Shown here piece by piece: positions 1,005 through 55,995 of a stretch of DNA of 64,000 nt. The position numbers and the translations under genes were made by a program. Position 1 is the first letter of the stretch. Every line of letters starts with the position of its first letter. The stretch is from a virus. The stretch spans positions 48,012 to 112,011 of IMG/VR virus record IMGVR_UViG_3300042890_001842. The stretch is one strand, 5' to 3'. The notes under the pieces are model-generated. The model made no database searches. It had not been told where the DNA came from and saw nothing but the letters and a program-made list of their open reading frames with translations.

Positions 1005-4000
1005 TTATGTATAGGATGTCTCACTTGGAACCCATGCTGAATAAGCTGAGGATAGTCCACCAGTATTAGCTCTTACTCTTACTCTAGCATAGTTATTAGG
1101 AGATGCATATGGAGTAGTAAGCTGGTAAGAACCGTTAACAGTGGTAGACTGTGTATACGGTCCAGCCACAGTGGAAACTCCATTAGTAAAGCCAGTAGCA
1201 CTTTGTGCAGTATAGAATTCTATTGTAAATGTACTAGCTCCAGGATGAGACCATCCTACAGCTCCAATTCCACTAAATGTAACATTTGTTGGAGTAGCTG
1301 GCGCAGTTCCACCAAAGGTTGGGAAGTAAGGGAAGTAAGGTGGGAAGAATGGGAAGAACGGTGGGAAGAATGGGAAGAATGGATTAACAGCTGGACTTCC
1401 AGTATTTGCAGTAATAATTGTTGTTTGTCCAATATCATAATCTACTACACCAGTTGATGTTCTTATTGGATTTGGAGCAAGAAACATGTTTGCAGTAGCT
1501 CTTGGTGTATATCCTCCAGGAAGGCTAGTTGGGCCAGTTGTATTAAAATTGACACGGTATCTGCTATTATTAGATAGTGTAATTGGATAACTAGTTACAG
1601 CAGATCCACCACTAAGATAGGCAAAATTATTAGCTGCAGTAACAGCCATATTTATAATAAAAATATCAGCATACTGTTGTCCTGGATAAAACTTTGCTTC
1701 ATATTCCATTACATTTGTTGTAATTCCATACTGATGTCCTCTCCATCTTACAACATATGAAGATGAATCTCCAAAATAATGAAGTGAGGTTTGCTGCAGA
1801 TCTCTTGGCATTACGGCAAGGACTAATCCAGTTGTATTAGTTACTGAATCACTATCATTTCCAGTTACTTCAGTAGATGTTCCCAAACTTATATAACCAT
1901 TGGTAGATACGCTTATTCTATTACCAAGTGCAAATGTGTATGATGGGGTTGTCCATATAGCAGCAAAATTTGTATTTTGAGTAGGGGTATAAGTTTGACC
2001 AGGTTGTCTTGTAGCAACTAATTCTCCAACTGCAGGAGTTCTCCAAAAAGAAAATTGAAAACCTGCTCTGGTTCCAGGATCTGGTGCTGTATGAGCTGTT
2101 CCTGAAACAAATGGACCTGTTGTTTGAATCCCATTAGTTCCTCCAGCAGCATCCCAAGTTATACTATAAGATAAAAGTGTTGTTATTTCATTAGTAATAA
2201 CAACTTGATTTGGTAATACTCCGTTTGACCATGTAACTTCTGCACGTATTTTATAACCAATATCTGCAGCTTGAACTGTATATGTTGTGCCATTTGTTTG
2301 AACTATTGTACCACCAGCAAAAGTACCACCACTAGTGCCTCCGTCGTTTCTTCTCCAAACCCAAGTAGCTGTCGTAGCAGGGTTTCCAGTAGCATCTGTC
2401 TTTGAAAGAGTAAGATTAGATGATTGTGCACCTGTTCCAGAAATTGAGGCTGAACCTCCAGAAGGTGCTGTAGCAGTATAAGTAACAAATGTGCTAGACC
2501 AATTTGTAAATGTATTTAATGTGGCATTTCCATTTAAAGTTGTATTTCCTAAATTTTGATTTGAAGACCTAAGCCAAAAATTCCAAGATCCTGGTGAAGT
2601 GACAGGCAAAGATTCAAAAATGCTTCCAAGACTTGTTGATGCTGCATCGTAATACGTAGTATTTGCTGGAGCAAATCCTGATTGATTCCAGTATAACTGA
2701 TAATACGGACCTGTGCCAGTGGCAGAAAATGTAACATTAAAAATTTGTGTTCCTGAATTATATGTAACTCCAGATGGAGTTGGTATTGAGCCAAGAAGTG
2801 GATTTACGGTAACAGTTGTTGTTGACTGTACATTTCCAGGTTGAGCTGTTATAGTAATAGTTTTTGATCCAGTTGTAGCATAAGTATGTGCTCTACTTTG
2901 AGAAATAGTATTACCTGAAAATGAAGAATATGTTTCCGCGCTTGTGCCATCTCCCCAGTTTATTGTATATTGAGTAGGGTATCCAGATATTGAAAAATTG
3001 TAGGTTTTAGAAACGGTGGCCTGAACAAGAGGTGGAGAAACTCCATCAACACTAATAGCTCCTATTGAAACTGCAGGATCAACATTTGTATTAAGGTCTC
3101 CCCAGGTTGCAAATGCTTCTACTCCTGGGTCTGTTCCATTTTTTGCAGTTACTCTACATCTTACTTTAGTGGCATAAGTTGATGATGTAGGAATAACAAA
3201 TATATTTGAAGTGTTCCCAGACTCCGTCATGTTCCTATACCCGCTAAGAACTCCAGCGTCCTCATAATATTGCCATTGATATGAATATACAGTACTAGCA
3301 TTTACATTTGTCCAAGTTCCAGTGCTACATGTAAGCTGTACTCCTCTTGGCGCATATCCTCTACTGTTTAATGGTGTAACTGTAGGAGCAATTGTATTGA
3401 CTGGTAATACTCCTGTTGTTTGAAATGTTACGTTCCTTACTTGAAGTGTTGGGTTCGTAGATGTTTTCCAACCATCATTTGCTACCACTTCAATTCTTCC
3501 GTAATAAGTAGTATTTGTAGATAGGCCAGGACTGTCAGTTACTGTATAAACTCTAGTATTTACTGAGGGTATTGTTATTGGAGAAATTACATCAGGGCCA
3601 GTTGTGCTACCAGACCTTATTTTTAAAGTTTGACTATGTATATAAGTAGAATCAGTTATTCCTCCAACGGACCAAGTAAAAGTAACATCGTTATCCGTTA
3701 CGTTTGAAGTTGTTAATGAATCAACTGTATGTGATACTTTAGATAATCTAGCTGCGCTTACTATTGGAAAATTATAAATAGGAGAGTTTATATCTGAGGG
3801 GTCGGTATCTACTCTTATTCTTCCTCCAATATAATATCCTCCTTTTGCATCATCGTCAGTAACTGTGTAGGTAATTCCTGTAGATGCGTTTGAAGTATTG
3901 CCATAAAAAATAGTTGGTCCAGAAACTATTTCCCAATTTGCAATGCTGGTTTCAAGATTAATACTTCTAACTATCTGCATAGTATATTTTGTATTAGCAT

Positions 4001-33217: not shown

Positions 33218-33907
33218 TTATGCATCTATATTTTTAAACATCCAGTGGCTTGGAACCATATACTTAAACCCACTTTTAACTAGATGTGCTGTATGGTGAT
33301 ATGGTGGAGATGATGGGAAGATAACAATACTGCCAGCCTTTGGCTTAATTGAAACAGTAAGCGCTTCTTTATTTTCTTTAGCGGCAACATCAAAATCTTC
33401 AGAAGGCTTGCCTTCAATAATGGGAGCATCTGGAGATTTGATTGTGAATGAAAGCTCTCCACCCTCATAATCGTCATTCAAATACATTACCATAGAATAC
33501 TTTAATCTTTTATCGCCCTCTTGCTGGTCATAATGTGCTCCCATAAACGTCCCAGCTTTATACTTTTTGATTGGAAAAACTGGGTAGAAATTTGGTTCTT
33601 CTTGATCTCCTTGTGCCAAGGCGTAGTCTTTGCATGCTTCATAGAATGCATTATTTATAGCATGAAAAATATAACTTACATCATTAGAATCTGCTGGCTG
33701 AGATTTCTCATCTTCATTAGCATAAATAATTTTTTCTGTTCCGTAGTTATACATTTGACCACTACATGAGTCCCAGCTAGACCATTTTGATATAGAGCTA
33801 CCAAAGTCTTTAAACTCAGTTGACTCAATAACCTCTAATAGCTTTTTTGGATCCTCAAAAACATCTGTATAGTAATAAATCTTTTCTTCTAACACTTCTC
33901 TATTCAT
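33218..33907 (-). CDS. Prolyl-4-hydroxylase-like 2OG-Fe(II) oxygenase
   Basis: HYD...YLNDDYEGGEL...H...K; start chosen at MNREV. Confidence 0.88.
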   Translation of the reverse strand: MNREVLEEKIYYYTDVFEDPKKLLEVIESTEFKDFGSSISKWSSWDSCSGQMYNYGTEKIIYANEDEKSQPADSNDVSYIFHAINNAFYEACKDYALAQGDQEEPNFYPVFPIKKYKAGTFMGAHYDQQEGDKRLKYSMVMYLNDDYEGGELSFTIKSPDAPIIEGKPSEDFDVAAKENKEALTVSIKPKAGSIVIFPSSPPYHHTAHLVKSGFKYMVPSHWMFKNIDA

Positions 33908-34646
33908 TATCGTCTCCTTTAAATTTATACTTTTGTCCATCTAAATCAAGCTTGTATCCTTCTTTTAATAGCTCTTGCCATTCTGATCTTTCAACTTCTT
34001 GAGCCTCTCTAATCTTCTTCATTTCTTCAGCCCAAGCATCTCTAACTTCTTGAGGATAATCTGATTCTGCTCTATCATCCCAGAAAGATCCAATCGTATA
34101 CCTTGTTCCTTTTGTAATTATAGTAACCTCATGCATATTTTCAAAACCTCCGTCAAATGCCGCAAGCATCCCTACCTTTGGTTTAATTGTTAAATTCTGA
34201 GAAGGAAAGCTTAGTAGTCCGCCTTCAAAATCATCATTAAGATATAAAAATGCTGCGTATCTACTTCTAGCAAAAGGACCTGTATTTCCCTTTTCATCAG
34301 TATTGTCTGAGTGTATTCTGGCATATGCGCCTGGCTCCCATTTTTGAGTATGAAAACCTATTTCGAAAATACTAGACACGTCCTTATTTCCAACCTCTGC
34401 AATTGACTCTATAAATTTATTCTTTAAATTAGAAAAAAAGTTAGAAGGCAGCCCAAATTCCTCTAACTCTGAGTCTTTATCTTGTGGCGTAACTGAAGAG
34501 TATGACTCGTAAAAAGAAATTGGCATCCAAGAAATCTTTCCATTAGACGCTTGCTTATCCAATACTTTTATTACAGCAGAACATTCTTCTGGCGAAAGAA
34601 AATCTTCATAAACAAAAATATTATTAGTATGTTTAATTAAATTCAT
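33900..34646 (-). CDS. Prolyl-4-hydroxylase-like 2OG-Fe(II) oxygenase
   Basis: HSD...YLNDDFEGG...HEV...R; ATGA coupling to the upstream gene. Confidence 0.88.
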   Translation of the reverse strand: MNLIKHTNNIFVYEDFLSPEECSAVIKVLDKQASNGKISWMPISFYESYSSVTPQDKDSELEEFGLPSNFFSNLKNKFIESIAEVGNKDVSSIFEIGFHTQKWEPGAYARIHSDNTDEKGNTGPFARSRYAAFLYLNDDFEGGLLSFPSQNLTIKPKVGMLAAFDGGFENMHEVTIITKGTRYTIGSFWDDRAESDYPQEVRDAWAEEMKKIREAQEVERSEWQELLKEGYKLDLDGQKYKFKGDDNE

Positions 34647-35314
34647 GGCTTGTTGTCTCCAGTGTGCTCTATAATTGTCCAAAAAAATGGACATGTGTAT
34701 CTAATACCACTTTTAATTTCAGTTACTCCATGGATAAAATTCTTATCTCCTGGGAAGAAGTAGGCTGCTCCACGCTTTGGCTTAAACTGAATTCCTTGTA
34801 ATGGAAAATATAACTCTCCGCCTTCGTAGTCATCATTTAAGTAAAATAAACTTGCTATGTCATAGTAAGGAAAATCATTTGGCAATCCAGCATCAGGTCC
34901 ATCATGAAGTTCTTTATCTGCATGCGGATTTTGCAACTGTCCTGGCAGCCATCTAACTATTGTTTGTCCTGTTGGAACTGCCACTACATTATAAAAATTT
35001 TCAATTACTGGCTTAAGCTTTTTAAATAATCCTTCTATTACTGGGCCTATCTCTGGGTCATTCTTATCTAACGAAGGTCTGCTAGCCACTCTATCTTTCC
35101 AATAATCTGCATCATAGATAACTGTTCCATTTTCATTCGTATGACTTTCAGTAACATCCCAAATTTTAATATTTCTAGCAGAGTTTTCTAAAAAGTTAAT
35201 CTCATCCTCAGTCATGAAGTTTTCTAGCTCGACTATCATATCTTTACTATTTCCAAAAAATCCAGACGGGGTGATTGACTTTCTTTCTTCGTGGCTCATA
35301 TTCATTATATCCAT
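34643..35314 (-). CDS. Prolyl-4-hydroxylase-like 2OG-Fe(II) oxygenase
   Basis: HAD...YLNDDYEGGEL...HGV...R. Confidence 0.88.
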   Translation of the reverse strand: MDIMNMSHEERKSITPSGFFGNSKDMIVELENFMTEDEINFLENSARNIKIWDVTESHTNENGTVIYDADYWKDRVASRPSLDKNDPEIGPVIEGLFKKLKPVIENFYNVVAVPTGQTIVRWLPGQLQNPHADKELHDGPDAGLPNDFPYYDIASLFYLNDDYEGGELYFPLQGIQFKPKRGAAYFFPGDKNFIHGVTEIKSGIRYTCPFFWTIIEHTGDNKP

Positions 35315-35316
35315 AA

Positions 35317-36042
35317 TTACATTATACCATTTCTCTTTTTGGTATTGTCTAGCACTGAAAGTCTTATTACTTTTGTTTCATGAGAACCAAGGCTTTCACC
35401 CTTTTCATTGACAGCATCTCTATACCAATCTGTCCATTTTCCCTGTTGATTTATTTCTTGAGCTGCATTTCCATAGGATCTATGTGCGTTTTCTCTTTTT
35501 CTATCAGGATCAGAATAATCAAAAACATTAATTTCTGTGTCATTCATAGAAGTTAATGATATGGGAATAATTGTTGCTAACGGAGTACCAGACTTTATAA
35601 CTATATTTTTATTTGCTGACCTGGCCTTGATTGCCAACGGTAAAGATACATCAAGCCAAGATGTACTTATCAATGAAGACATTGTTTCAAAGTCTTCATT
35701 AAAATAATTAACTGGGTTTATAGTCATAAGGCTAATATTCTTATCTGTTCTAAAAGTTAATCCAGTATTAAAACTTACAGTAGACTGCCCTCTTCCAGAA
35801 TAAGTAAATTCTATCCCTTTTGTAATCTGGACATTGTCTGAACTTGTGTCGTTAATTCCATTCCAAGTAAACTCAACATCTTTTTCTGAATATAAATACC
35901 ATCCAACCATATTTGCCTGTGTTACTGGAAAGCATCTATAAGCATGCTTTTCTGGTGTATCGTCCATCCAATCTCTTTTGATTGACATTGGTGCTATAGA
36001 TATAACAGAGTCCATAGACTTTTCAACAGATATATTAAGCAT
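35317..36042 (-). CDS. DUF6065-like protein
   Basis: R.WMD.T...AYRC.P...AN..GW and GTP...IIP motifs. Confidence 0.7.
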   Translation of the reverse strand: MLNISVEKSMDSVISIAPMSIKRDWMDDTPEKHAYRCFPVTQANMVGWYLYSEKDVEFTWNGINDTSSDNVQITKGIEFTYSGRGQSTVSFNTGLTFRTDKNISLMTINPVNYFNEDFETMSSLISTSWLDVSLPLAIKARSANKNIVIKSGTPLATIIPISLTSMNDTEINVFDYSDPDRKRENAHRSYGNAAQEINQQGKWTDWYRDAVNEKGESLGSHETKVIRLSVLDNTKKRNGIM

Positions 36043-36698
36043 TAGTCCTCGTCTGGTCGATACATCTCAGGGGTATGAAACTTTTTATTGTAGTCAAGCA
36101 TTGTTACAATTGAATACTTTGTACCGCTATGGACTGGCATCGCTCTGTGTGGGTACATGAAATTTGATGGGAATATATATAGATCTCCAGCTTTTGGTTT
36201 AATGCTTAAATCTTGAAGTCTAAAGTAAAGTTCTCCACCTTCGTAATCATCATTAGGATAAGCAACTAAAGAAACAGTACAGTTGTAAGAAAAACCATGA
36301 TCATGGTGCTCTTGAAAGTGTTGTCCTGGACCATACTTAATAAAATTAAATGCTTCCCAGTATTTTAACTCCATAATATTATAGTCTCGTCTATAATCAT
36401 CAACTGCAGCAGATTGAGCATCATATACATCCTGCCACAAATTTTGTAGTTGTAAAGAAGTCTCACTTTTATCAAACTGTAAGTCAGTCTTTTTAAATTT
36501 AAAATCTGTGCAGTCTCTATAGTCTGGCATCAATTCTTTATACCCAACATATGCTGGCTGCCAAGCATATCTATTTGTTGTTCCAACTGGTGCTAACAAA
36601 TTATTTAAACGATTTATTACATCAAACTCTGGCTTGATGACATTTGAATAGCGAACAATACCATTTCCAAGATTTTCTTTATCTGTCCATGTTTTCAT
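36042..36698 (-). CDS. Prolyl-4-hydroxylase-like 2OG-Fe(II) oxygenase
   Basis: HHD...NDDYEGGEL...H...K; start chosen at MKTWT. Confidence 0.88.
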   Translation of the reverse strand: MKTWTDKENLGNGIVRYSNVIKPEFDVINRLNNLLAPVGTTNRYAWQPAYVGYKELMPDYRDCTDFKFKKTDLQFDKSETSLQLQNLWQDVYDAQSAAVDDYRRDYNIMELKYWEAFNFIKYGPGQHFQEHHDHGFSYNCTVSLVAYPNDDYEGGELYFRLQDLSIKPKAGDLYIFPSNFMYPHRAMPVHSGTKYSIVTMLDYNKKFHTPEMYRPDED

Positions 36699-36702
36699 AA
36701 CA

Positions 36703-37485
36703 TTACCTATATTCTCTTCTAGACCAAACTTTGTCCTTATAGACTCCACCATCTGGAACCCTATATTTTTTAGCGTTATTAAAAAATTCTAATTGTATTT
36801 CTCTTTCAGACAACAACTGTTTCTCATGATACCAGTTTTCTCTTTTAAATGGAAGTACTTGCATATATGGGGTTCCTGCTGGTATTGTTCCTTCCCAATC
36901 TTTTATAACAAAAAATGGAAATGATCCAGAAAGATTAACCTTATCATTATCAACAACGCCAGTTGTATTTAAAAATGGCAAGTCAAATCTATTCATTGGA
37001 GTCATGTATAAACAACTATATCCTTCTGGAACAACTAAACCCCAGTCTGGAAACCATGAGAAGTGGTCTTCATAATATCCTGTTGGATGCTTAAATTGTG
37101 GCATTGGAGGACGTTTAGTGCAAAAAGATTTATATCTTTCGTCTTCAACTTTTACATCTATCTTTCCATAGTCATTTTTAAAAAATGTAATATCGCAAGG
37201 AGTTTTTAAAACATACCCAGTCATAAATGCATCTAGAATAGCTGGACATGCTTTCCAGGTTGGAATCATGCCATAGTCATTAGTTGTACCTTCTTTTGGA
37301 AATGGACAGACTGCTTGCGGAGCTTTATAATATTCTCCATTTGGCATCTTTGCAAATCTATCTGCCTCTTTATACCAATCTGGAATCTCTGATTGTGTTG
37401 GAGATGGTACTGATGGACTATTTTCTGTCAACGAAGGATTAGTCCCTCTAAATAAAATTAAATGGCTTGAATCTTCATTTTGCAT
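36703..37485 (-). CDS. DUF6065-related beta-rich protein
   Basis: K.CP...D....GY, PEGYS, GVVD.D and AGTP..Q..PFKRE motifs. Confidence 0.6.
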   Translation of the reverse strand: MQNEDSSHLILFRGTNPSLTENSPSVPSPTQSEIPDWYKEADRFAKMPNGEYYKAPQAVCPFPKEGTTNDYGMIPTWKACPAILDAFMTGYVLKTPCDITFFKNDYGKIDVKVEDERYKSFCTKRPPMPQFKHPTGYYEDHFSWFPDWGLVVPEGYSCLYMTPMNRFDLPFLNTTGVVDNDKVNLSGSFPFFVIKDWEGTIPAGTPYMQVLPFKRENWYHEKQLLSEREIQLEFFNNAKKYRVPDGGVYKDKVWSRREYR

Positions 37486-38192
37486 TAATGAGACCTACTG
37501 CTTAAATCAGTCATAACGACTACACAGTATTTAGTACCACTCTTCATTGGTAAAGAGGCATGTTCATAAATATAGTTTGAAGGAAATACTGCTATGTCGC
37601 CAGACTTTGGAGTATAAACCAAATTATCTAGTCGTGGAAACTGAAGCTCTCCTCCTTCATAGTCATCATTTATATATATAACAGCTGAAACTGTGCAGTT
37701 GTAAGCTGGACCATGGTCTGCGTGTATTCTGAAATGCTTTCCTTCTCCTTCATACTTTACAAAGTTAAAAGCTTCGTAATACGTGATATTAATTCCCCAG
37801 TATCTACAGTAGTCGTCTATACACAACTTAAGCTTTTCATAAATCTCTTGATGCAAATCAATTAGCTCTGCATTGTTATCATTCCTTGGACCAAGGTTTT
37901 CTTGCTTATATCTAAAATCAACACAGTCTCTGGCTTTTTTAATTGGAGTTGTTGAGTTTGTTACTTGAGCCTCAGACCATGTATAAAATTTTCCGTCTGT
38001 CAAATTTGACTCAAGAGTAGAAATATATCTTGTTGCATCTTCTGTTGAAAAAACATTATGATAAATATTTAGACCTAGACCAGGGTTTGTTGTTGTTATT
38101 GAACTGTTAACCTGTCTTTCAGTCATTCTGTTTGCAGCTGTTTCTGATCTATCTTTGTTGAACCAATGATCTTGTTGGTCTGGGTATTCCAT
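37485..38192 (-). CDS. Prolyl-4-hydroxylase-like 2OG-Fe(II) oxygenase; close paralog of 36042-36698
   Basis: HAD...NDDYEGGEL...H...K; shares EAFNF.KY and YNCTVS with the paralog. Confidence 0.88.
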   Translation of the reverse strand: MEYPDQQDHWFNKDRSETAANRMTERQVNSSITTTNPGLGLNIYHNVFSTEDATRYISTLESNLTDGKFYTWSEAQVTNSTTPIKKARDCVDFRYKQENLGPRNDNNAELIDLHQEIYEKLKLCIDDYCRYWGINITYYEAFNFVKYEGEGKHFRIHADHGPAYNCTVSAVIYINDDYEGGELQFPRLDNLVYTPKSGDIAVFPSNYIYEHASLPMKSGTKYCVVVMTDLSSRSH

Positions 38193-38242
38193 TAAATTAT
38201 TCCTGTCTCTATAAGTAAATTATACAATATTTTGTTAATTTT

Positions 38243-38485
38243 TTAAAGTGGTTCTTTTTTCCATTTTTTAATTGGACATTCAGCATCTGCAAGCATTGTT
38301 TTTGCAGGCATGAAACAACCACACAATTTACACTGTTTTGTTATTTGAATAAAATTTTCACAAGACATACACGTGTCAAGTCTACTTTTAATAATAGACT
38401 GATCTTCTATACGCTTCCCTGAATCTAATATGTGCCATGGTCTTGAGTCACCAAGAGATTTTTTCCACTCTTCCCATTTTGACAT
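38243..38485 (-). CDS. DUF6171-like Cys-rich small protein
   Basis: R...CxxC...CxxCGC...CP..KW. Confidence 0.7.
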   Translation of the reverse strand: MSKWEEWKKSLGDSRPWHILDSGKRIEDQSIIKSRLDTCMSCENFIQITKQCKLCGCFMPAKTMLADAECPIKKWKKEPL

Positions 38486-38487
38486 AC

Positions 38488-38925
38488 TTATTCTGGTCCT
38501 CTGAAGCTAGAACCGTTCCAAATATCTCCTTTTGATACAAACTGATCATCTTGTATCTTTAAGAAAACAATATCCTGTGCAAATGCTGCCTCAAACATAT
38601 CGTCATTTAAAGTTTCTTTTGTTTGAAAAAATGTCAAAAATATTTTATTATCACATAAAATAGAGTAAGTTCTTGTAAAATCCCAATTTAAATTCATTGG
38701 TTCAAAAGAATCTCCTCCTGAAAAAGAATTACCATCCCAAACTGCATTAGTACACGCAGCATTTTGAAATGGAGAAGTGTTCATTCCAGTAATAGGGAGA
38801 CCACTATTAATTGCATTTTCGCATCTTTCTATAAATGGTGCTGGTGGGTTTGAGTGATCTGTTTGAACCTTAAATATTTCATATTCAGTTTCATTTATTT
38901 TAGTACCAATAGCATATCTATACAT
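38488..38925 (-). CDS. Hypothetical protein with duplicated WDG..F motif (fibre-associated accessory)
   Basis: AVWDGNSFS and DIWNGSSFR; GAGG SD. Confidence 0.6.
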   Translation of the reverse strand: MYRYAIGTKINETEYEIFKVQTDHSNPPAPFIERCENAINSGLPITGMNTSPFQNAACTNAVWDGNSFSGGDSFEPMNLNWDFTRTYSILCDNKIFLTFFQTKETLNDDMFEAAFAQDIVFLKIQDDQFVSKGDIWNGSSFRGPE

Positions 38926-38988
38926 ATATCCTCTTTTCTAAACTAATAATATCATATAAAAATAAACATTTCAATAGCAAATAACTAT

Positions 38989-39870
38989 TTAAACTGCACA
39001 GTCACAATTACAACCAGGTCCAAAACTTCCAGGATAACATCCACCACAGTTTGCTCCACAGCTTGCAAAGGTTGGGAAGTAAGGGAAGAACGGGAAGTAC
39101 GGGAAGTACGGTGGGAAGAACGGGAAGAACGGTGGGAAGAACGGGAAGAACGGGAAGAACGGGAAGAACGGGAAGTACGGGAAGTACGGTGGGAAGAACG
39201 GGAAGAACGGTGGGAAGAACGGGAAGAACGGGAAGAATGGGAAGTACGGGAAGTACGGGAAGTACGGTGGGAAGAACGGGAAGAACGGTGGGAAGAACGG
39301 GAAGAATGGGAAGAACGGGAAGTACGGGAAGTAAGGGAAGAATGGTGGGAAGAATGGGAAGAACGGTGGGAAGAACGGGAAGAACGGTGGGAAGAACGGG
39401 AAGAACGGGAAGAATGGGAAGTACGGGAAGTAAGGGAAGAATGGTGGGAAGAATGGGAAGAACGGTGGGAAGAACGGGAAGAACGGTGGGAAGAACGGGA
39501 AGAACGGGAAGAATGGGAAGTACGGGAAGTAAGGGAAGAATGGTGGGAAGAATGGGAAGTACGGTGGGAAGAATGGGAAGTAAGGTGGGAAGAACGGGAA
39601 GAATGGGAAGTACGGGAAGTAAGGGAAGTACGGGAAGAAAGGTGGGAAGAATGGGAAGTACGGTGGGAAGAACGGGAAGAACGGTGGGAAGAACGGGAAA
39701 AATGGGAAGTAAGGTGGGAAGAAAGGAAAATAAGGAGGAAAGAACGGAAAGAAGGGAGGAAAGAACGGAAAGTAAGGTGGGAAGAACGGTGCAGAAACAA
39801 TAGTAGCCATAGTAACTCCTGTGGCTTTTTTATTTTTTTTGTCTTTGCTATCGTTTCCTCTTGATGCCAT
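38989..39870 (-). CDS. Pro/Phe/Tyr-repeat protein with basic N-terminus and 6-Cys C-terminus (293 aa)
   Basis: ATG at 39870 is coupled (TAATG) to the upstream fibre gene; DNA variation falls at Pro third positions and F/Y swaps in this frame. Confidence 0.8.
   Translation of the reverse strand: MASRGNDSKDKKNKKATGVTMATIVSAPFFPPYFPFFPPFFPFFPPYFPFFPPYFPFFPFFPPFFPFFPPYFPFFPPFFPYFPYFPYFPFFPFFPPYFPFFPPYFPFFPPFFPYFPYFPFFPFFPFFPPFFPFFPPFFPFFPPFFPYFPYFPFFPFFPFFPPFFPFFPPFFPFFPPFFPYFPYFPFFPFFPFFPPFFPFFPPYFPYFPYFPFFPFFPFFPPFFPFFPPYFPYFPFFPFFPFFPFFPPFFPFFPPYFPYFPFFPYFPTFASCGANCGGCYPGSFGPGCNCDCAV
39073..39789 (-). repeat. 717-bp coding tandem repeat of 9- and 12-bp units encoding P[F/Y]F and PP[F/Y]F
   Basis: GGGAAGAAC / GGGAAGTAC / GGTGGGAAGAAC units on the + strand; exact 99-bp duplication at 39331-39429 and 39430-39528. 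Confidence 0.95.
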
Positions 39871-40562
39871 TATGAGATTCCATTTCCTCCGATAAGCCAC
39901 TCAGTAGTATTTATTTTTACGAGTGTACACATTCCATTTGAGGCAAGTGTTCTTCCAGATCCAGTGGTTGCAGTATTTGCTAATCTTAATGTATCAGTAG
40001 TTATATTTATAGTTGTAGAAATACCATTACCATTAATAATAACAATCGATGTACCAATTGGAAATGCTGTAGCACTATTTGCTGGAATTGTTATTGTTTG
40101 TCCAGATGTTGTGGTCATATAAATATGCTTGCCAGCATCTGAGGCAGCTAATGTTCTTCCGCCAGATGTTACTGCAACTTGTGGCATACCCATATATCCT
40201 GCACTAGCTGCAGCTGTGGAAGTAGTACCATCTGCAGGAAATGCAGTAGTTTTAATTGTAGAAGATCCAAGAGTAATACCAGTAACAGTTGATGTAAATA
40301 TACTTGCTGCAGATGCGTTATTTGATCCAATTGTAGGGGATGCGTAGTTAAGGTTTACTGCACCAGTAAAAGATGCTCCAGATAGTGCCGCATAAGTAGA
40401 AGAAGCTGTTCCAGTTGTTAAGTAGGTTGAAGAGTCTACAGATCCATTAGCTTTAAGAAATTGAGAGGCGGTGCCTCCAGTAATAGCAAGAGAGGTGCCA
40501 GTAATAGTACCACCTGCATCAATACCGTTCTTTACTCTAAAGTTTTTATCTTGTGTTGCCAC
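39870..40562 (-). CDS. Fibre protein
   Basis: MATQDKNFRVKNG N-terminus; FPIGT...W...G C-terminal domain. Confidence 0.7.
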   Translation of the reverse strand: MATQDKNFRVKNGIDAGGTITGTSLAITGGTASQFLKANGSVDSSTYLTTGTASSTYAALSGASFTGAVNLNYASPTIGSNNASAASIFTSTVTGITLGSSTIKTTAFPADGTTSTAAASAGYMGMPQVAVTSGGRTLAASDAGKHIYMTTTSGQTITIPANSATAFPIGTSIVIINGNGISTTINITTDTLRLANTATTGSGRTLASNGMCTLVKINTTEWLIGGNGIS

Positions 40563-40599: not shown

Positions 40600-42798
40600 C
40601 TATGCTGCTATTAAAGTTCTCATTGCTTTTGCTACTAGCCCACCATTTCCTGTAGTTGGAGTAACTGTAATAGTTACCGTTCCAGCTGTGAGAGTTGCAG
40701 TAATTGTGAATAAATCTGTAGATGTCATAACGTTACCATATTCTGAAATATGAACATCTGCAGCATTAACGGTAACTAGTAGTTCTGTTAATTCACGCTC
40801 ATTTCCGCTTTTTCCTTGAATCAGATACTTTCCAGAAGTAAATGATGCTACTGCAAATGTATCCAAGGTATAACCAGTTCCAGCAGTCGCACATGTGACT
40901 GTTACAGAAGAGTCTTGTGAGTTTGCATATGCTACAGATGTTGCTGTAGCTGCTCCTATAGTTGGAGTTGTTAGTGTTGGGGAGTTTGCGAATACTAGAC
41001 CACCAGATGATCCTTGCTCATCAGTTATGGCTGCTGCTAGGTTTGCTGAAGATGGAGTTGTCAAGAATGTTGCAATTCCTGATCCCATTTGAGTAACGCT
41101 TAGAGTACCGTCTCCACCAGATGTAGTTACAAGACCATTTGTTGTTAATGAGCCTAGCTTCTTATTGGTTAAGCTTTCTGTTCCAGCCAAAGTAGCAAGT
41201 GTTCCAGTAGTTGGAAGAGTTACGCTTGTATTTCCAGTTGCTGTAAATGTTTGTGTAAATGAACCAGAGTGTGTAACGTTTCCTGCCAAAGTAATTGTAT
41301 TTGAACCATTATTTACTCCAGTACCACCGTATGTTGAACCAATTACTGATCCTTGCCAAGTGCCTGTTCCAATTGTTCCAAGTGTTGTAATTGATGTTTG
41401 TCCAACATATGTTGATGCAATATCAATGCTATCTGAATTTACGGTAATTCTATTTGAAGTTCCGCCTACATCATATGCATTTCCATTTTTTACAAGACCA
41501 GCTCCAGCTGTTGCTGTAGATGCTCCTGAGAACTGTGTCCATGTTACTGCGTCTGTTCCAATTGTTGTAACTTTTGCAGTTTGAACCCATAAAGTTGTTC
41601 CGTTCGTTGTACCTGATGCTACATAAACAAGATCTCCTGATCCCATTTCTGGTGTAGTGTTTTGATCTTCAGCACGTGTAAGTACCCAAGCTACTGCTCC
41701 TGTACCAAGAGTTGTAATAGTATAAATACCATTTTGCAATGCTGTTGTTTGGTTCTTAACAAGCACTCTGTCATTTAGTACTGGTGTCTGACCATCGATT
41801 GTAAATGCTGCCAGTGTTCCAGAGTTTGTAAGTGTTGCTCCAACTCCAGATGTTCCATTGCTATATGTTGCAGTTAAGTTAGCAGTTGTTGATGCTACTA
41901 CTGCTGCGTGAGCATTTAATCCTGCTGCTGCATTATCAACATATTGCTTTGTTGCTGCTTGTAGTGCAGATGAAGGATCTTGAGCTAATGTTACTGTTCC
42001 AGTAAATGTTGGATTATTCAGAGGAGCTCTAGATGTATCAGTTGGGTGAACGTGATCTTGTCTTGCTACTGTTGTTGAAGTTCCAACTGCAGCCGTTCCA
42101 TTCATTGGTGAAGTTGCGCTTGCAAGTGCTGTTATGCTATTAAAAGATGTACCAGTTGCAACGCCAATATTTGGAGTTGTAAGAGTTGGAGATGTTGCAA
42201 ATACTAATGCGCCAGATCCAGTTTCATCTGAAATAATTCCAGCCAACTGTGAAGATGTAGTTGATGAAAATGCGCTTAGGTTATTTGATGTATATGCTAC
42301 TGTTCCGCCTGCGCCAAATGCTACAGAAGAAGCATCAGTTCCTGTAAATGTTAATGTATTGCTTGCTGTAAGAGTTTTTCCGTCTGCAATTGTTAATGTT
42401 GACCCTGTAGCAGGAGCAGTAAATGCAACTTTGTTGATAGATGTTGCTGTAGCTATGCCTAGAGTTGGAGTTATAAGAGTTGGGCTTGATGCAAATACGA
42501 GAGATCCGCTACCAGTCTCATCAGAAATTATTCCAGCTAATTGTGAAGAAGTTGTTGATGAAAAGAATCCAAGATTGTTAGAGCTGAGTGCTAGCGTTCC
42601 AGCAGCATCTTGAATAGTAATTGCTCTTGATGCAGTAAGCGTAGTTGGGCTAATTGTAGCAGCATATGTTCCGCTTCCACCTGCCCTACCAGTAATGATG
42701 ACCGCATCTTGTGTATCCGCTGGTCTTACAATAATTCCAGAGGAGCCCTCTACTACCGCTCCACTTTTTACTCTAAAAGACTTATCTATTGTTGCCAT
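40600..42798 (-). CDS. Long fibre protein with internal repeats
   Basis: Three copies of SS..LA.IISDE.GSG.LVFA.SPTL.TP; AATKQYVD and DRVLV...QNGIY module. Confidence 0.75.
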   Translation of the reverse strand: MATIDKSFRVKSGAVVEGSSGIIVRPADTQDAVIITGRAGGSGTYAATISPTTLTASRAITIQDAAGTLALSSNNLGFFSSTTSSQLAGIISDETGSGSLVFASSPTLITPTLGIATATSINKVAFTAPATGSTLTIADGKTLTASNTLTFTGTDASSVAFGAGGTVAYTSNNLSAFSSTTSSQLAGIISDETGSGALVFATSPTLTTPNIGVATGTSFNSITALASATSPMNGTAAVGTSTTVARQDHVHPTDTSRAPLNNPTFTGTVTLAQDPSSALQAATKQYVDNAAAGLNAHAAVVASTTANLTATYSNGTSGVGATLTNSGTLAAFTIDGQTPVLNDRVLVKNQTTALQNGIYTITTLGTGAVAWVLTRAEDQNTTPEMGSGDLVYVASGTTNGTTLWVQTAKVTTIGTDAVTWTQFSGASTATAGAGLVKNGNAYDVGGTSNRITVNSDSIDIASTYVGQTSITTLGTIGTGTWQGSVIGSTYGGTGVNNGSNTITLAGNVTHSGSFTQTFTATGNTSVTLPTTGTLATLAGTESLTNKKLGSLTTNGLVTTSGGDGTLSVTQMGSGIATFLTTPSSANLAAAITDEQGSSGGLVFANSPTLTTPTIGAATATSVAYANSQDSSVTVTCATAGTGYTLDTFAVASFTSGKYLIQGKSGNERELTELLVTVNAADVHISEYGNVMTSTDLFTITATLTAGTVTITVTPTTGNGGLVAKAMRTLIAA

Positions 42799-46370: not shown

Positions 46371-46395
46371 TTTCAAAATCTCCTAAATAGGAAAA

Positions 46396-46421
46396 CTCCT
46401 ATGCTTATTTTAGCATAGGAG
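46396..46421 (-). terminator. Hairpin after the holin-like gene, overlapping a TGC-TAAAAT promoter
   Basis: CTCCTATGCT...AGCATAGGAG inverted repeat with a T-run on the minus strand. Confidence 0.6.
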
Positions 46422-46442
46422 TCGTCCTAACTACTTATTTAA

Positions 46443-48765: not shown

Positions 48766-49764
48766 TTAAGAAAACTTTTTAAAAATGTGTTCAAAAGCAT
48801 TATTAGTCAACTGTAACCAATTGTAATCCTTATGTAGTCTACTTGACTGTGCATAATAATATCCTGACATTGCTTTAAAGTTTTTTGCAACAAAAAGCAT
48901 ATGCTCTTCTAAGTTTTCTTTATCTGGTTTAAACATTTGTCCAAGATGTATGCTTTTAATTGTATTTGGTATTGCTTCATCTGTAAGTGTTGAGTTAAGC
49001 TTTAGAGGCCCAAGATAATCTTTGTAATGTGCCCAGGCTTCTGTGCAAATTGTAGGCATACCAGTTGCTAAAGCCTGAAAAGGAATAAGTCCAAAACCTT
49101 CTCCCCATCCTGGATATATCAAAACATGATGTGAGTTATATAAATCTACTAGTTGACTTAAATTTAACTCATCTGTTATAATCTTTATATTATTATATAT
49201 ATTAGGAGTAGATATCTTATTATCATTAATATGTACTCTAGTACTATTACTATAATGTCCTTTAATAGTTAAAGAATAACGTTCATCCCCAGCAAAATAT
49301 TTTACAAAAGCATCAAGAGCCATTTGCCCACCTTTTCTAGGTGCAGGTTCTCCAACATGTAAAAACTTTAATGGTCTGTCTTCAGCAACAACTCTTCTAA
49401 CTGGAGACCAAACATCTTCTATTCCATGTGGAAAAACTTTTATGTTAACCTTAACTCCGTTTTCTTGAAAAACATTTGCACACCAATCAGATGTTGTCCA
49501 CACTTCATCACATCTGTTAAATAATGCAACCCATTCTTTTTTTATTACAGTAGATTCCCATGGTGTATATCCAATTTGATATTGATTTTTATTAAAGTCA
49601 AAATAATCTGGTTGACAAAAGTTTAATTGAACTTTTGCAGTTTTATCATCTACATTAACTTCATGACCAAGTTCTTTTAATGATCTTACTATATTCCCGC
49701 CAGCATAACCATATCCAATTGCTGGATTTAATGATTGTTTAGCTGTGTGATAAGATATTTTCAT
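48766..49764 (-). CDS. GT4 (GT-B) glycosyltransferase
   Basis: RKG and EGFGL...A.A.G.P motifs; start chosen at MKISY. Confidence 0.85.
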   Translation of the reverse strand: MKISYHTAKQSLNPAIGYGYAGGNIVRSLKELGHEVNVDDKTAKVQLNFCQPDYFDFNKNQYQIGYTPWESTVIKKEWVALFNRCDEVWTTSDWCANVFQENGVKVNIKVFPHGIEDVWSPVRRVVAEDRPLKFLHVGEPAPRKGGQMALDAFVKYFAGDERYSLTIKGHYSNSTRVHINDNKISTPNIYNNIKIITDELNLSQLVDLYNSHHVLIYPGWGEGFGLIPFQALATGMPTICTEAWAHYKDYLGPLKLNSTLTDEAIPNTIKSIHLGQMFKPDKENLEEHMLFVAKNFKAMSGYYYAQSSRLHKDYNWLQLTNNAFEHIFKKFS

Positions 49765-49842
49765 TTTAACTTTCTGGTTGACTAGCTTGACAGTTATTAT
49801 CAAACAATGTTATTATTATAGTTCGTTATCTCTAAAGGAGGA

Positions 49843-51861: not shown

Positions 51862-52515
51862 ATGACATTCTTAAAGCAAGAGCTAATTGATGCTGGTTTC
51901 GATCCAAAAGAACCAGTTGAGGGAATTCTTATTGTAGAAAACTTTATAACAAGTTCAGAGTTGTCAGAGTTTTGGGATATCATTAACAGCACCCCTGAAG
52001 AACAATGGTTTGTTCACTACAGAGATCATCTAGCAAAATTTTGCATGGAAAAGTTTGGAAGAGATGATGTTGAAAATCTTGTAGCCGAAGGCAAGTATGA
52101 GATAACACGAGGCTGGGATGACAAGAATCTTTTAGTTATAAGCTATCCAGTTTCACAAAAAGTTACAACTAGACTTACAGATTTAATTGCTAAATCAGAT
52201 CCCAACCTTCATTTATCTTTTGGCATCTTTCAAAGAATGCAAAAAGGTGTAGAGCTTAAAGCTCACACTGATCAGCACACGGATCCAAGCATTAAATATG
52301 CAGCAGTTCTTTATCTAAATGAAGACTACACAGACGGAGAAATTTTTTGGCCTAACAAGGATTTTGAAATAAAACCTAAAACTGGATCACTTATAATGTT
52401 TCCTGGAACAGATGAGTTTAACCACGGAGTTAAGCATGTTGGAGATGGGCCAATAAGATATGTTATGCCAGGATTTATTAAGGTTGCAGATTTTTACGAA
52501 AAAAATAAATATTGA
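51862..52515 (+). CDS. Prolyl-4-hydroxylase-like 2OG-Fe(II) oxygenase (sixth copy)
   Basis: HTD...YLNEDY.DGEI...HGV...R; leaderless-type promoter. Confidence 0.87.
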   Translation: MTFLKQELIDAGFDPKEPVEGILIVENFITSSELSEFWDIINSTPEEQWFVHYRDHLAKFCMEKFGRDDVENLVAEGKYEITRGWDDKNLLVISYPVSQKVTTRLTDLIAKSDPNLHLSFGIFQRMQKGVELKAHTDQHTDPSIKYAAVLYLNEDYTDGEIFWPNKDFEIKPKTGSLIMFPGTDEFNHGVKHVGDGPIRYVMPGFIKVADFYEKNKY

Positions 52516-53675
52516 TGAACATCTCTTGCGAAAGCATAGAGTATATCCCATTTAGCCTAGAAGTAGAATGTCATTATAAAAAAACACACTCTGTAGAAAT
52601 TATTAAATTCAAGAACTTAAAAATTGATAACGGTGGAGGTCTCACAGTAGTTGAAGGAAAGTCTTATCCTTTTTTATTAGGCTACTACAATCAGTTTCAT
52701 ACCATACCAGATCTATGTGGACAGTTTGAAGCACTTAACACTTTTGATAGCGACATACTTCCATTCTTTATTTCTGAAGGACAAAGAGGAAGTCTTATAA
52801 TTAAAGACCACAGCATTCAAGAATTTATTCCGTATGTATATTCAAATCATTACCCTATAACACAAACCGAATGTTTTAACATTTTGTCTTCAAGTGTTAT
52901 GTTTAAAGAAGCATACGTTATTGTAGACTTGCATAAGATGATTCCAGAAGAAGTTTACATAAATGCAAAGTCAAGCCTACCAGAATGGTACAAAGATTCA
53001 GAAAAACAAAAATGGGAAGCTAACTCTGCTTGTTTAAAAATTCAACCTCTTGTAAAACAAGAAAGTTTAAAAAATGATAAAAGATACCAAACTCAGATAT
53101 TATCTGATTACAGCTATAATTATGATTACTTTATAAGATATGGAATTGAAAAGTTTAAAGAAAAAGTTTTATCTTGTTTAAATAGAAAAGAAAATAAATC
53201 TAAAGGTGTTTATATATCTAGGACAAAAACTACTAAGGCGTATTTTGAGAACCTAAAAAATGCAACTGATCCTGAAGACATTGAGGCAAGACATAAAACT
53301 TTTATTAATAGAAGTTACCATAAAGAAGAATTTTTTGAAAACCATTTTAAAGACATTGGATATGAAGTTGTTTACATGGAAGAGCTAGACTACATAAATC
53401 AACTAGAGATACTGCTAAATACTAAAAACGTAGTTGCATTACATGGTTCTGGTTTAGTGAATACCTTTGTCTGTGATAAAGATACAAATGTTTACGAGAT
53501 CATGCTTCCAGTTGCACAAGATGGATGGTGGCAAAACTTTTTCTTTTTATTTAGTCCTATTGCAGGCTGTATGGATGATAAAACTTTGCCTTTATCTTGT
53601 ATTGAAGATAGAAAATGGAAACAGATATATGAAGAAAAAAATGCAATGAATATTAATAGCTGGCTTACAGACTAA
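52512..53675 (+). CDS. GT61 / DUF563-like glycosyltransferase
   Basis: YISR...GYEVVYMEELDYINQ...HGSGLVN. Confidence 0.75.
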   Translation: MMNISCESIEYIPFSLEVECHYKKTHSVEIIKFKNLKIDNGGGLTVVEGKSYPFLLGYYNQFHTIPDLCGQFEALNTFDSDILPFFISEGQRGSLIIKDHSIQEFIPYVYSNHYPITQTECFNILSSSVMFKEAYVIVDLHKMIPEEVYINAKSSLPEWYKDSEKQKWEANSACLKIQPLVKQESLKNDKRYQTQILSDYSYNYDYFIRYGIEKFKEKVLSCLNRKENKSKGVYISRTKTTKAYFENLKNATDPEDIEARHKTFINRSYHKEEFFENHFKDIGYEVVYMEELDYINQLEILLNTKNVVALHGSGLVNTFVCDKDTNVYEIMLPVAQDGWWQNFFFLFSPIAGCMDDKTLPLSCIEDRKWKQIYEEKNAMNINSWLTD

Positions 53676-53953: not shown

Positions 53954-53981
53954 ATAGCTAAATTATATCAAATGTTTTTTA

Positions 53982-54647: not shown

Positions 54648-54685
54648 AGTACTAACATTATACCATAATATGCTATAATTCTTAA

Positions 54686-55993: not shown

Positions 55994-55995
55994 AT

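What the first reader, a model, noticed from the sequence alone, without database searches (positions are those of the whole stretch)
33218..39870. Pro/Phe/Tyr polymer protein followed by five prolyl-hydroxylase-like enzymes: candidate phage protein-modification system
Seen: a 293-aa protein made of a short Lys-rich N-terminus, 239 consecutive residues of only P, F and Y (units P[F/Y]F and PP[F/Y]F) and a 6-Cys tail. It is translationally coupled to the last fibre gene. Downstream on the same strand are a WDG-motif protein, a Cys-rich DUF6171-like protein, five 2OG-Fe(II) oxygenases with intact HxD...H...R/K motifs and two DUF6065-like proteins. Known: this oxygenase class includes the peptidyl prolyl hydroxylases acting on collagen and plant extensins. 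Inference: the repeat is the substrate, and the paralogs differ in site or residue specificity (first versus second Pro, or Phe/Tyr), producing a hydroxylated polyproline-type filament at the fibre tip. Alternative: a RiPP-like multicore precursor (FFPPFF occurs in the cyclic peptide antamanide), but no protease or cyclase gene was seen.
Basis: partly seen in the sequence, partly recalled or inferred. Interest (0 to 1): 0.92.

Follow-up and report, generated by a model that had tools for sequence, protein, structure and literature searches.

The report
Phage Pro-Phe polymer with hydroxylase battery
An uncultured lake phage encodes, at the end of its tail-fibre genes, a protein that is almost pure proline-phenylalanine-tyrosine polymer, followed by five collagen-hydroxylase-type enzymes and two dUTPase-fold helpers; polymer and enzymes are gained, lost and exchanged together among phages, so the polymer is a testable candidate substrate for phage oxygenases whose role has been open since 2007-2010, although no chemistry is shown.

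Summary
ORF 38989-39870 (-) encodes 293 aa with 239 consecutive P/F/Y residues, a Lys-rich head and a 6-Cys tail. It is followed on the same strand by a small orphan gene, a DUF6171-like gene, five intact P4H-type 2OG-Fe(II) oxygenases and two DUF6065 proteins.

New here:
- The P(P)[F/Y]F repeat is a widespread module of uncultured actinophage-like lake phages. It is usually FN3-FN3-repeat plus a Cys-rich, Hint or S74 end. It also occurs as a linker in a 1109-aa tail protein of this genome.
- The core order ox1-DUF6065-ox2-DUF6065-ox3 follows the repeat gene in nearly all loci.
- Among 20 records sampled only by capsid similarity, repeat and array are both present (2) or both absent (17). One record has a Pro/Tyr-repeat variant with two oxygenases.
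- Cassette similarity is incongruent with capsid similarity, so the block moves as a unit.
- DUF6065 has a dUTPase fold and includes Syn9 gp43, part of the cyanophage dioxygenase array described in 2010. That array has no such repeat.
- The two small genes track the Cys-rich tail only.

The substrate link is strongly suggested by genomics but unproven. This scan has already noted the same system in at least 67 other genomes.

The parts
39870..40562 (-). Last fibre-like gene (230 aa). Its stop overlaps the start of the polymer gene.
   Evidence: The N-terminus resembles that of the 732-aa fibre protein 40600-42798, which hits tail-fibre PHROGs.
38989..39870 (-). Pro/Phe/Tyr polymer protein, 293 aa: a 27-aa Lys-rich head, a 239-aa P(P)[F/Y]F array and a 27-aa tail with 6 Cys.
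   Evidence: Close relatives L032/L129 and L131 conserve the head and the tail.
39073..39789 (-). The repeat array itself: units of 9 and 12 nt, with higher-order periods of 78 and 99 nt.
   Evidence: Array length is 115, 172 and 239 residues among close relatives.
38488..38925 (-). 145-aa orphan protein ('WDG'). It is present only where the polymer ends in a Cys-rich tail.
   Evidence: No Pfam, PHROG or Atlas hit. Contingency with tail type.
38243..38485 (-). 80-aa Cys-rich DUF6171-like protein, also tied to Cys-rich tails.
   Evidence: phrog_13558 E 2e-16. DUF6171 at 24 bits, below the cut-off. Contingency.
37485..38192 (-). Oxygenase ox1 (core).
   Evidence: PF13640 at 45.5 bits. Triad intact. 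Orthologues have median 70% identity.
36703..37485 (-). DUF6065-like protein a (core).
   Evidence: phrog_7084 E 9e-31. hhalign against the DUF6065b profile gives 93.5% probability.
36042..36752 (-). Oxygenase ox2 (core).
   Evidence: PF13640 at 55.8 bits. Best PDB match is the B. anthracis P4H.
35317..36042 (-). DUF6065 protein b (core), with a dUTPase fold and an invariant Cys.
   Evidence: PF19541 at 111 bits. Model pLDDT 72.6. VIA Z 10.6-8 to 12 dUTPases. C37 is invariant.
34643..35314 (-). Oxygenase ox3 (core).
   Evidence: PF13640 at 31.6 bits. Orthologues have median 76% identity.
33900..34694 (-). Oxygenase ox4 (variable part of the array).
   Evidence: PF13640 at 37.2 bits. Best PDB matches are P3H1 and the B. 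anthracis P4H.
33218..33940 (-). Oxygenase ox5 (variable part of the array).
   Evidence: PF13640 at 47.7 bits.
1323..1382 (-). Second, 20-residue PF repeat. It links the body of the 1109-aa tail-region protein (1005-4334) to a C-terminal FN3-like domain.
51862..52515 (+). Sixth oxygenase (ox6). Its orthologue sits inside the array in most relatives. Here it overlaps a GT61 gene (52512-53675) and lies near a sulfotransferase gene (53982-54692) and a second GT61 gene (54686-55993).

Best explanation
The polymer gene and the array form one accessory fibre module.

- The gene makes a structural, virion-associated fibre-end protein. Its P(P)[F/Y]F array acts as a long Pro/aromatic stalk or linker ending in a small disulfide-type Cys knob.
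- The downstream cassette is three ancient, non-redundant P4H-type 2OG-Fe(II) oxygenases interleaved with two dUTPase-fold DUF6065 proteins, plus variable extra oxygenases.
- The cassette is made with the structural proteins and most likely oxidises this repeat after translation, together with the shorter PF linkers in other tail proteins. Proline hydroxylation is the most likely reaction. Hydroxylation of Phe or Tyr side chains is possible.
- The two small genes (WDG, DUF6171-like) serve the Cys-rich tail, not the repeat.

Shown: the anatomy, the family assignments, intact catalytic residues, co-occurrence, joint gain and loss, and joint transfer. Inferred: virion location, the enzyme-substrate relation, and the residue attacked.
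For: 1. The repeat is a protein module. It is fused in frame to FN3, PASTA, Hint, S74 and Cys-rich ends in over 100 proteins. It is also a linker in this phage's 1109-aa tail protein. An S74 intramolecular-chaperone end is typical of trimeric fibres.
2. Adjacency is near-universal. Counting the Cys-rich, short and Hint tail classes among loci found by the repeat with at least 1.5 kb downstream, 75 of 81 have an oxygenase within 2.5 kb on the same strand. Of 40 loci found by DUF6065 alone, 39 have the repeat 2.3-4.4 kb upstream.
3. In a control sampled by capsid only (MCP 84-99% identical), 2 of 20 records have the array and both have the repeat next to it. Seventeen have neither, including two complete genomes. 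One complete genome has a Pro/Tyr repeat with a Cys tail beside one oxygenase, with a second oxygenase and a DUF6065-like gene about 5 kb on.
4. The cassette is more similar in phages with 38-39% or undetectable MCP similarity than in phages with about 80% MCP identity. The block is therefore exchanged as a unit.
5. The closest solved relatives are peptidyl prolyl and lysyl hydroxylases, and the catalytic residues are intact.
6. The array is present whatever the tail type, whereas WDG/DUF6171 follow Cys tails only (33/37 vs 4/61, p 3e-17).
7. ox1, ox2 and ox3 orthologues are 70-76% identical across loci, but the paralogues are only 16-39% identical to ox1.
8. The block lies inside the fibre-to-portal late gene run with no strong terminator.
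Against: - No mass, proteomic or enzymatic datum exists.
- Matches to P4H are weak (E 1e-5 to 4e-4).
- DUF6065 has the fold of nucleotide enzymes.
- Syn9 has a homologous dioxygenase plus DUF6065 (gp43) array after its fibre genes but no Pro/aromatic repeat nearby.
- Repeat length and Tyr content do not correlate with oxygenase number.
- Fibre modules are exchanged as blocks anyway, so joint transfer could reflect linkage to the fibre module rather than to the repeat.
- For the PBCV-1 precedent, a review's reference list cites an unpublished analysis that found no hydroxyproline in virions.
Confidence: 0.5

Rival explanations
1. The array modifies some other part of the fibre module, or the host surface: other fibre proteins, the Cys-rich knob, or Lys/Asp/Asn residues. 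The polymer gene merely rides in the same exchangeable fibre-end block.
For: Syn9 has the array after its fibre genes without a repeat. Fibre blocks move as units. A relative without the block carries two weak GT-like genes in the same slot, so the slot holds tailoring genes in general. Lysyl hydroxylases are among the best PDB matches.
Against: The array is kept with every tail type, and the only constant part of the neighbouring gene is the repeat. In capsid relatives, the upstream fibre genes are present without the array when the repeat is absent.
Confidence: 0.2
2. The cassette makes or alters a small molecule, a free peptide or a nucleotide. This is the secondary-metabolite idea of Iyer et al. 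2010 for the Syn9 array, or a nucleotide route suggested by the dUTPase fold. It would have nothing to do with the virion.
For: DUF6065 has a dUTPase fold, Z up to 10.6. Iyer et al. describe the Syn9 array with halogenases and propose metabolite synthesis (PMC2938197). ox3 has a weak Tet_JBP hit and ox4 a weak hit to a cyclophane-peptide oxygenase, both below cut-off.
Against: No dUTPase Pfam match or recognisable motif V was found. No halogenase, NRPS, ATP-grasp or nucleotide-metabolism gene lies in the block. The block sits in the late fibre-portal run and is gained and lost with the repeat gene. The best PDB relatives are protein hydroxylases.
Confidence: 0.15
3. The oxygenases are general host-takeover genes: DNA repair of the AlkB kind, or drains on the 2-oxoglutarate pool, as proposed for cyanophages.
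For: These proposals are cited in Sullivan et al. 2010 (PMC3037559). The nearest cultured homologues are cyanophage oxygenases.
Against: Five to eleven diverged, individually conserved paralogues in a fixed order with two partner proteins are not needed for a pool drain. No AlkB-type match was found. There is strict linkage to one structural gene.
Confidence: 0.05
4. The polymer is a RiPP-like multicore precursor, and the Cys-rich tail or PF units are released as small peptides.
For: The protein has a short head, a repetitive core and a Cys-rich end. In relatives a Hint domain could cleave at the end of the repeat. ox4 has a weak hit to a RiPP oxygenase family.
Against: The block contains no protease, cyclase, radical-SAM or transporter gene. 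The same repeat is an internal linker between folded domains of 900-1500-aa structural proteins.
Confidence: 0.05

Closest known systems
Tandem dioxygenase array of Synechococcus phage Syn9, gp41-gp54 (Iyer, Abhiman, de Souza, Aravind 2010, NAR 38:5261, PMC2938197)
   Same: [quoted passage not shown] Syn9 gp43 matches the DUF6065 profile built here (E 4.5e-14). The array lies directly after tail-fibre genes on the same strand. The function is untested.
   Different: Syn9 adds two tryptophan halogenases and a JmjC-type enzyme, and has a single DUF6065 gene. No Pro/aromatic repeat protein lies nearby. Its authors proposed metabolite synthesis, not virion modification.
Chlorovirus PBCV-1 prolyl 4-hydroxylase with virus-encoded Pro-rich repeats (Eriksson et al. 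1999, J Biol Chem 274:22131; cited in PMC7019647)
   Same: A virus encodes both a P4H-type enzyme and proteins with short Pro-rich tandem repeats that serve as peptide substrates in vitro (my knowledge of that paper; citation checked).
   Different: PBCV-1 has one enzyme, not an array, and no DUF6065. Its repeats are of the Pro-Ala-Pro-Lys type, not aromatic. It is a eukaryotic host system, and enzyme and substrate genes are not adjacent.
Collagen, plant extensin/PRP and mussel foot protein systems (hydroxylated Pro- and Tyr-rich structural repeats)
   Same: These are short tandem Pro-rich units in extracellular structural proteins, modified by 2OG-dependent prolyl hydroxylases. Some have aromatic residues that are oxidised or cross-linked (established knowledge).
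   Different: The repeat has no Gly-X-Y, no Ser-Pro4 and no Lys. It is two-thirds aromatic. Hydroxylation is not shown.
Bacterial operons pairing dioxygenases and sulfotransferases with collagen-like or tail-collar proteins (Iyer et al. 2010)
   Same: The predicted logic is hydroxylate a fibrous protein, then decorate the hydroxyl. This genome has an oxygenase overlapping a GT61 gene next to a sulfotransferase gene.
   Different: That island is 12 kb from the polymer gene, and its GT61 and sulfotransferase genes have no homologues in the flanks held for related loci.

Membership tests
P4H-type 2OG-Fe(II) oxygenases (Pfam PF13640) | Profile match above the curated threshold | tested here: met
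   All five score 31.6-55.8 bits against a cut-off of 27. ox6 scores 42.2 bits.
P4H-type 2OG-Fe(II) oxygenases (Pfam PF13640) | HxD...H iron triad and a basic residue for the 2OG C5 carboxylate | tested here: met
   H157, D159 and H211 are invariant, and [KR]-Y follows in all six paralogues. The triad is also invariant in 46 ox1 orthologues.
P4H-type 2OG-Fe(II) oxygenases (Pfam PF13640) | Hydroxylates peptidyl proline | not testable with these tools
   Only similarity is available: the best PDB sequences are B. anthracis P4H, P3H1 and LH3, at E 1e-5 to 6e-4.
DUF6065 / Syn9 gp43-like proteins | Pfam PF19541 match | tested here: met
   35317-36042 scores 111 bits. 36703-37485 has no Pfam match but is homologous by hhalign at 93.5% probability, E 2e-7, and by phrog_7084.
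DUF6065 / Syn9 gp43-like proteins | dUTPase-like fold with a conserved cysteine (Iyer et al. 2010) | tested here: met
   VIA gives Z 10.6-8.0 to 12 dUTPase entries, with unrelated folds below 4.5. Foldseek gives E 3e-4. C37 is invariant.
dUTPase / dCTP deaminase enzymes | Sequence motifs of the enzyme family (Pfam dUTPase match, Gly-rich motif V) | tested here: not met
   Neither DUF6065 protein has a dUTPase family match at E 0.01. Identity to dUTPases is 9-13%. The conserved columns show no motif-V-like stretch.
Collagen-like or extensin-like repeats | Gly every third residue, or Ser-Pro(3-5) blocks | tested here: not met
   The array holds only P, F and Y.
RiPP precursor with tailoring cluster | Leader/core peptide plus protease, cyclase or transporter genes in the cluster | tested here: not met
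   None are found among the ten genes. The repeat is embedded in large folded proteins elsewhere.
Syn9-type tandem dioxygenase array | Several diverged dioxygenases in tandem with a dUTPase-fold protein | tested here: met
Syn9-type tandem dioxygenase array | Tryptophan halogenases and a JmjC-type member | tested here: not met
   No such family appears among the genes 33218-39870.

The most novel reading that the evidence does not exclude
Lake phages build a so far undescribed biopolymer: a Pro/Phe/Tyr rod up to 239 residues long at the end of a fibre. A dedicated battery of three or more distinct hydroxylases, working with dUTPase-fold partner proteins, oxidises it into a hydroxylated and possibly cross-linked or glycosylated aromatic filament or adhesive. 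This would be a phage counterpart of collagen, extensin or mussel-glue chemistry. It would also assign a first substrate class to the orphan oxygenase arrays of aquatic phages.
Probability: 0.4. Interest if true: 0.85.

Novelty: new variant of a known kind. Interest (0 to 1): 0.72.

Why it matters
Tandem 2OG-Fe(II) oxygenase genes are among the commonest 'auxiliary' genes of aquatic phages. Since 2007-2010 they have been explained only by guesses: DNA repair, control of 2-oxoglutarate levels, or metabolite synthesis. Here the array has a single, simple and chemically tractable candidate substrate that is gained, lost and transferred with it. One co-expression and mass-spectrometry experiment could therefore settle the question.

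The repeat itself, two-thirds aromatic and one-third proline, is not in the searchable literature. If it is hydroxylated, it would be a new kind of structural protein polymer. The dUTPase-fold DUF6065 family would also gain its first functional context.

Tried and rejected
- blastn of the region against cultured phages found nothing. tblastn of DUF6065b against cultured phages found nothing. DUF6065a matched only HF1/HF2-type haloarchaeal viruses, where the gene is solitary beside fibre genes.
- Complex prediction on ox1 with DUF6065a (alignments A3, A4) gave 'no answer'. This is no evidence either way.
- AlphaFold2 of the polymer as a single sequence gave pLDDT 49, so no structural statement is made.
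- The protein Atlas gave nothing for the 145-aa orphan.
- A profile search of DUF6065 against PDB sequences gave nothing significant.
Relatives cannot be drawn for a virus record.
- Bacterial DUF6065 genes in Sphingomonas and Hyphobacterium have no informative neighbours.
- Repeat length and Tyr fraction do not correlate with the number of oxygenases.
- Promoter and terminator scans were at chance level.
- Literature searches for DUF6065 and for PFFPPFF-type strings returned nothing.
- L197 looked like an array without the repeat, but extra oxygenase genes run to within about 1.4 kb of the contig end there.


Full report
**What is there**

The window is the right-hand 64 kb of a 112,011-bp IMG/VR virus record with direct terminal repeats. 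On the minus strand, ORF 38989-39870 encodes 293 aa. These are a 27-residue Lys-rich head, 239 consecutive residues of only Phe (121), Pro (95) and Tyr (23), and a 27-residue tail with six Cys. The array has 72 units P(P)[F/Y]F whose last residue is always Phe.

The start ATG overlaps the stop of the preceding 230-aa fibre-like ORF as TAATG. A GTG ten codons upstream is an alternative start. So is an internal ATG (Met21) with an AGGAG five bases before it.

Three reading frames are open over the array. Only the PFF frame reads three residue types; the others read seven or eight. In the PFF frame 48 of 94 Pro codons differ silently at the third base.

The array uses TTC (95%), TAC (96%) and CCG (49%), whereas the genome prefers TTT (76%), TAT (71%) and CCA (74%). 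It has higher-order periods of 78 and 99 nt. In the three closest relatives it is 115, 115 and 172 residues long, with head and tail conserved. So the array is evolving by unit gain and loss.

**The downstream genes**

Nine genes follow on the same strand:
- a 145-aa orphan;
- an 80-aa Cys-rich protein (phrog_13558; DUF6171 at 24 bits, below the cut-off);
- then ox1, DUF6065a, ox2, DUF6065b, ox3, ox4 and ox5.

All five oxygenases pass the PF13640 threshold and keep the HxD...H triad and the [KR]Y residue. Their best solved relatives by sequence are the Bacillus anthracis prolyl 4-hydroxylase, prolyl 3-hydroxylase 1, lysyl hydroxylase LH3 and the mimivirus lysyl hydroxylase, at E 1e-5 to about 0.09. 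No AlkB-type match was found, and the only Tet/JBP hit (ox3) is weak and below cut-off.

The two DUF6065 proteins are homologous to each other (hhalign 93.5%).

**The repeat is a widespread protein module**

A search with the polymer returned 116 metagenomic proteins with the same repeat.

The usual architecture has three parts:
- about 200 aa of two FN3 domains, sometimes PASTA or Ig-like domains;
- 20-140 residues of the repeat;
- one of several ends.

The ends seen are:
- a Cys-rich tail of 25-40 aa;
- a Hint/intein-like domain starting C-x-x-G-D-T-x-I-L-T and ending T-H-N, with Intein_splicing hits below cut-off;
- a Peptidase_S74 intramolecular chaperone domain (45.9 bits), typical of trimeric phage fibres;
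- further FN3 domains;
- a short tail.

The repeat also sits inside proteins of 880-1550 aa. In this genome a 20-residue copy links the body of the 1109-aa tail-region protein (1005-4334) to a C-terminal FN3-like domain.

So the repeat is a linker or stalk element of structural proteins. This argues against a RiPP precursor. This window's protein is unusual in having no folded N-terminal domain and the longest array seen.

**Which phage**

The major capsid protein is about 60% identical to those of 126-134-kb Streptomyces phages. Related contigs come from lake metagenomes, and some are mis-binned in lake MAGs. The phage is an uncultured, actinophage-like lake phage. The host is not established.

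**Co-occurrence with the array**

Of the 120 repeat-bearing loci, 90 hold an oxygenase homologue and 81 a DUF6065 homologue. These lie downstream on the same strand, and the first oxygenase usually starts 10-830 nt after the repeat gene's stop.

Counting only loci with at least 1.5 kb of downstream sequence, the array follows 31/33 short-tailed, 34/37 Cys-tailed and 10/11 Hint-tailed genes. The exceptions are mostly second repeat proteins located elsewhere in genomes that carry the array.

In reverse, of 40 loci fetched through DUF6065b alone with 5 kb or more upstream, 39 have the repeat 2.3-4.4 kb upstream. In the fortieth, extra oxygenase genes run to within about 1.4 kb of the contig end.

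The core order ox1-DUF6065a-ox2-DUF6065b-ox3 (less often ox1-ox2-DUF6065b-DUF6065a-ox3) is conserved. Orthologue identities have medians of 64-76%, whereas the paralogues are 16-39% identical to ox1. The enzymes are therefore old and not redundant. A variable set of two to six further oxygenases follows.

**A control that does not depend on either feature**

I sampled relatives by capsid protein only (MCP 84-99% identical). I then searched the 20 records of 24 kb or more for PF13640 and for the repeat pattern.
- Two records have an array of seven oxygenases, and both have the repeat directly beside it.
- Seventeen have neither. These include two complete genomes with terminal repeats (107.5 and 104.6 kb) and one that is 84% complete.
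- One complete genome (103.7 kb) has a reduced variant. It encodes a PASTA-domain protein with a (P-Y-S-N-P-P-P-Y-D-N-T-Y)-type Pro/Tyr repeat and a Cys-rich tail. An oxygenase lies next to it, and an orphan gene and a DUF6171-like gene follow. A DUF6065a-like gene and a second oxygenase lie 5 kb on.

In the 104.6-kb relative the flanks are collinear (fibres, LamG-type protein, portal). The slot instead holds two weak GT2/GT21-like genes.

**The block moves between lineages**

Records whose capsid protein is 78-81% identical to this one have ox1 at 44-62% and DUF6065b at 39-54% identity. Records whose capsid protein is only 38-39% identical, or undetectable in a complete 100.8-kb genome, have ox1 at 70-76% and DUF6065b at 64-66%.

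Cassette and capsid histories are therefore incongruent. Repeat gene and array stay adjacent throughout. This is more than one inherited arrangement. However, fibre modules are exchanged as blocks anyway, so it ties the array to the fibre end rather than strictly to the repeat.

**The small genes belong to the Cys tail**

WDG and/or DUF6171 homologues lie between the repeat gene and ox1 in 33 of 37 Cys-tailed loci, but in only 4 of 61 others (Fisher p 2.6e-17). They probably help fold, oxidise, metallate or bind the Cys knob. The oxygenase array is independent of tail type.

**DUF6065 and the link to known work**

An AlphaFold2 model of DUF6065b (pLDDT 72.6) matches dUTPases by Foldseek (E 3e-4). 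By VIA-align, Z is 10.6-8.0 for 12 dUTPase entries and about 6 for dCTP deaminases, with unrelated folds below 4.5. There is no dUTPase sequence-family match, and one Cys is invariant.

Iyer et al. 2010 described ten tandem dioxygenases in cyanophage Syn9. [quoted passage not shown] They proposed secondary-metabolite synthesis. Syn9 gp43 matches my DUF6065 profile (E 4.5e-14, 43 bits). The Syn9 array lies directly after its tail-fibre genes. No neighbouring Syn9 protein has a Pro/aromatic repeat.

The nearest cultured homologues of ox2 are cyanophage oxygenases at 22-45% identity. So the enzyme set is a variant of a known but unexplained kind. The pairing with a Pro/aromatic polymer is what is new. 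The Syn9 case shows that the enzyme set does not strictly need such a polymer.

**A second island**

A sixth oxygenase (51862-52515) overlaps a GT61 gene. A sulfotransferase gene, another GT61 gene and a GT4 gene lie nearby. Its orthologue sits inside the array (between ox4 and ox5) in most relatives.

This fits the hydroxylate-then-decorate logic proposed for bacterial fibrous proteins. But the GT61 and sulfotransferase genes have no homologues in the relatives' flanks that I hold.

**Verdict**

The genomic case that the array and the Pro/aromatic repeat belong together is strong: adjacency in both directions, joint presence and absence in capsid-matched relatives, joint transfer, and a Pro/Tyr variant. 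The enzymes are of the peptidyl-hydroxylase type with intact active sites.

What remains unshown:
- that the repeat is modified;
- which residue would be attacked;
- whether the protein is in the virion;
- what the dUTPase-fold proteins do.

I put the substrate reading at about 0.5. The main rivals are modification of another fibre-module target (0.2) and a small-molecule or nucleotide role (0.15).

The searchable literature holds neither the repeat nor DUF6065. This scan has noted the same system in at least 67 other genomes, and follow-up agents reached similar verdicts. I re-tested their main claims here independently.

Noticed in passing
window 39073-39789: The repeat uses codons that are rare in this genome (TTC 95%, TAC 96%, CCG 49%, against genome TTT 76%, TAT 71%, CCG 5%). 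Its length is 115, 172 or 239 residues among close relatives. This suggests homogenisation by slippage or selection at the DNA or translation level.
   Followed up: partly
window 51862-57069 and 48766-49803: An oxygenase whose orthologue normally sits in the array has moved next to a GT61 gene, with overlapping stop and start. A sulfotransferase gene, a second GT61 gene and a GT4 gene lie nearby. This may be a hydroxylate-then-glycosylate or sulfate island.
   Followed up: partly
L299:6388-13939 (complete 103.7-kb capsid relative): A variant mini-system: a PASTA-(PYSNPPPYDNTY)n-Cys-tail protein with one adjacent oxygenase, an orphan gene, a DUF6171-like gene, a DUF6065a-like gene on the other strand, and a second oxygenase.
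   Followed up: partly
L297:5715-7089 (complete 104.6-kb capsid relative): The slot between the last fibre gene and the LamG/portal genes holds two weak GT2/GT21-like genes instead of the polymer and array. The slot may be a general fibre-tailoring hot spot.
   Followed up: partly
L208-L211: Phage contigs carrying the cassette are binned in lake MAGs labelled Acidimicrobiaceae, Flavobacteriales and Luteolibacter. This is probably mis-binning, so the labels are not reliable host evidence.
   Followed up: no
L128 (Halorubrum phage HF2, 48119-49003): HF1/HF2-type haloarchaeal tailed viruses carry a solitary DUF6065a-like gene (26% identity) between the ribonucleotide reductase gene and the tail-fibre genes, with no oxygenase.
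   Followed up: partly
P0001, P0004, P0032, P0048 and many loci: Many repeat proteins end in a Hint/intein-like domain (C-x-x-G-D-T-x-I-L-T ... T-H-N) with almost no C-extein. This implies self-cleavage or thioester chemistry exactly at the end of the repeat.
   Followed up: partly
window 39804-39812: An internal ATG (Met21) has an AGGAG five bases upstream. This is a better-placed ribosome site than that of the annotated ATG, so a 273-aa product with only seven residues before the array is possible.
   Followed up: no
window 46394-46423 (-): The only strong terminator-like hairpin of the region (12-bp stem plus T run) lies between the ribonucleotide reductase gene and the first fibre gene. 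None follows until past the oxygenases.
   Followed up: no
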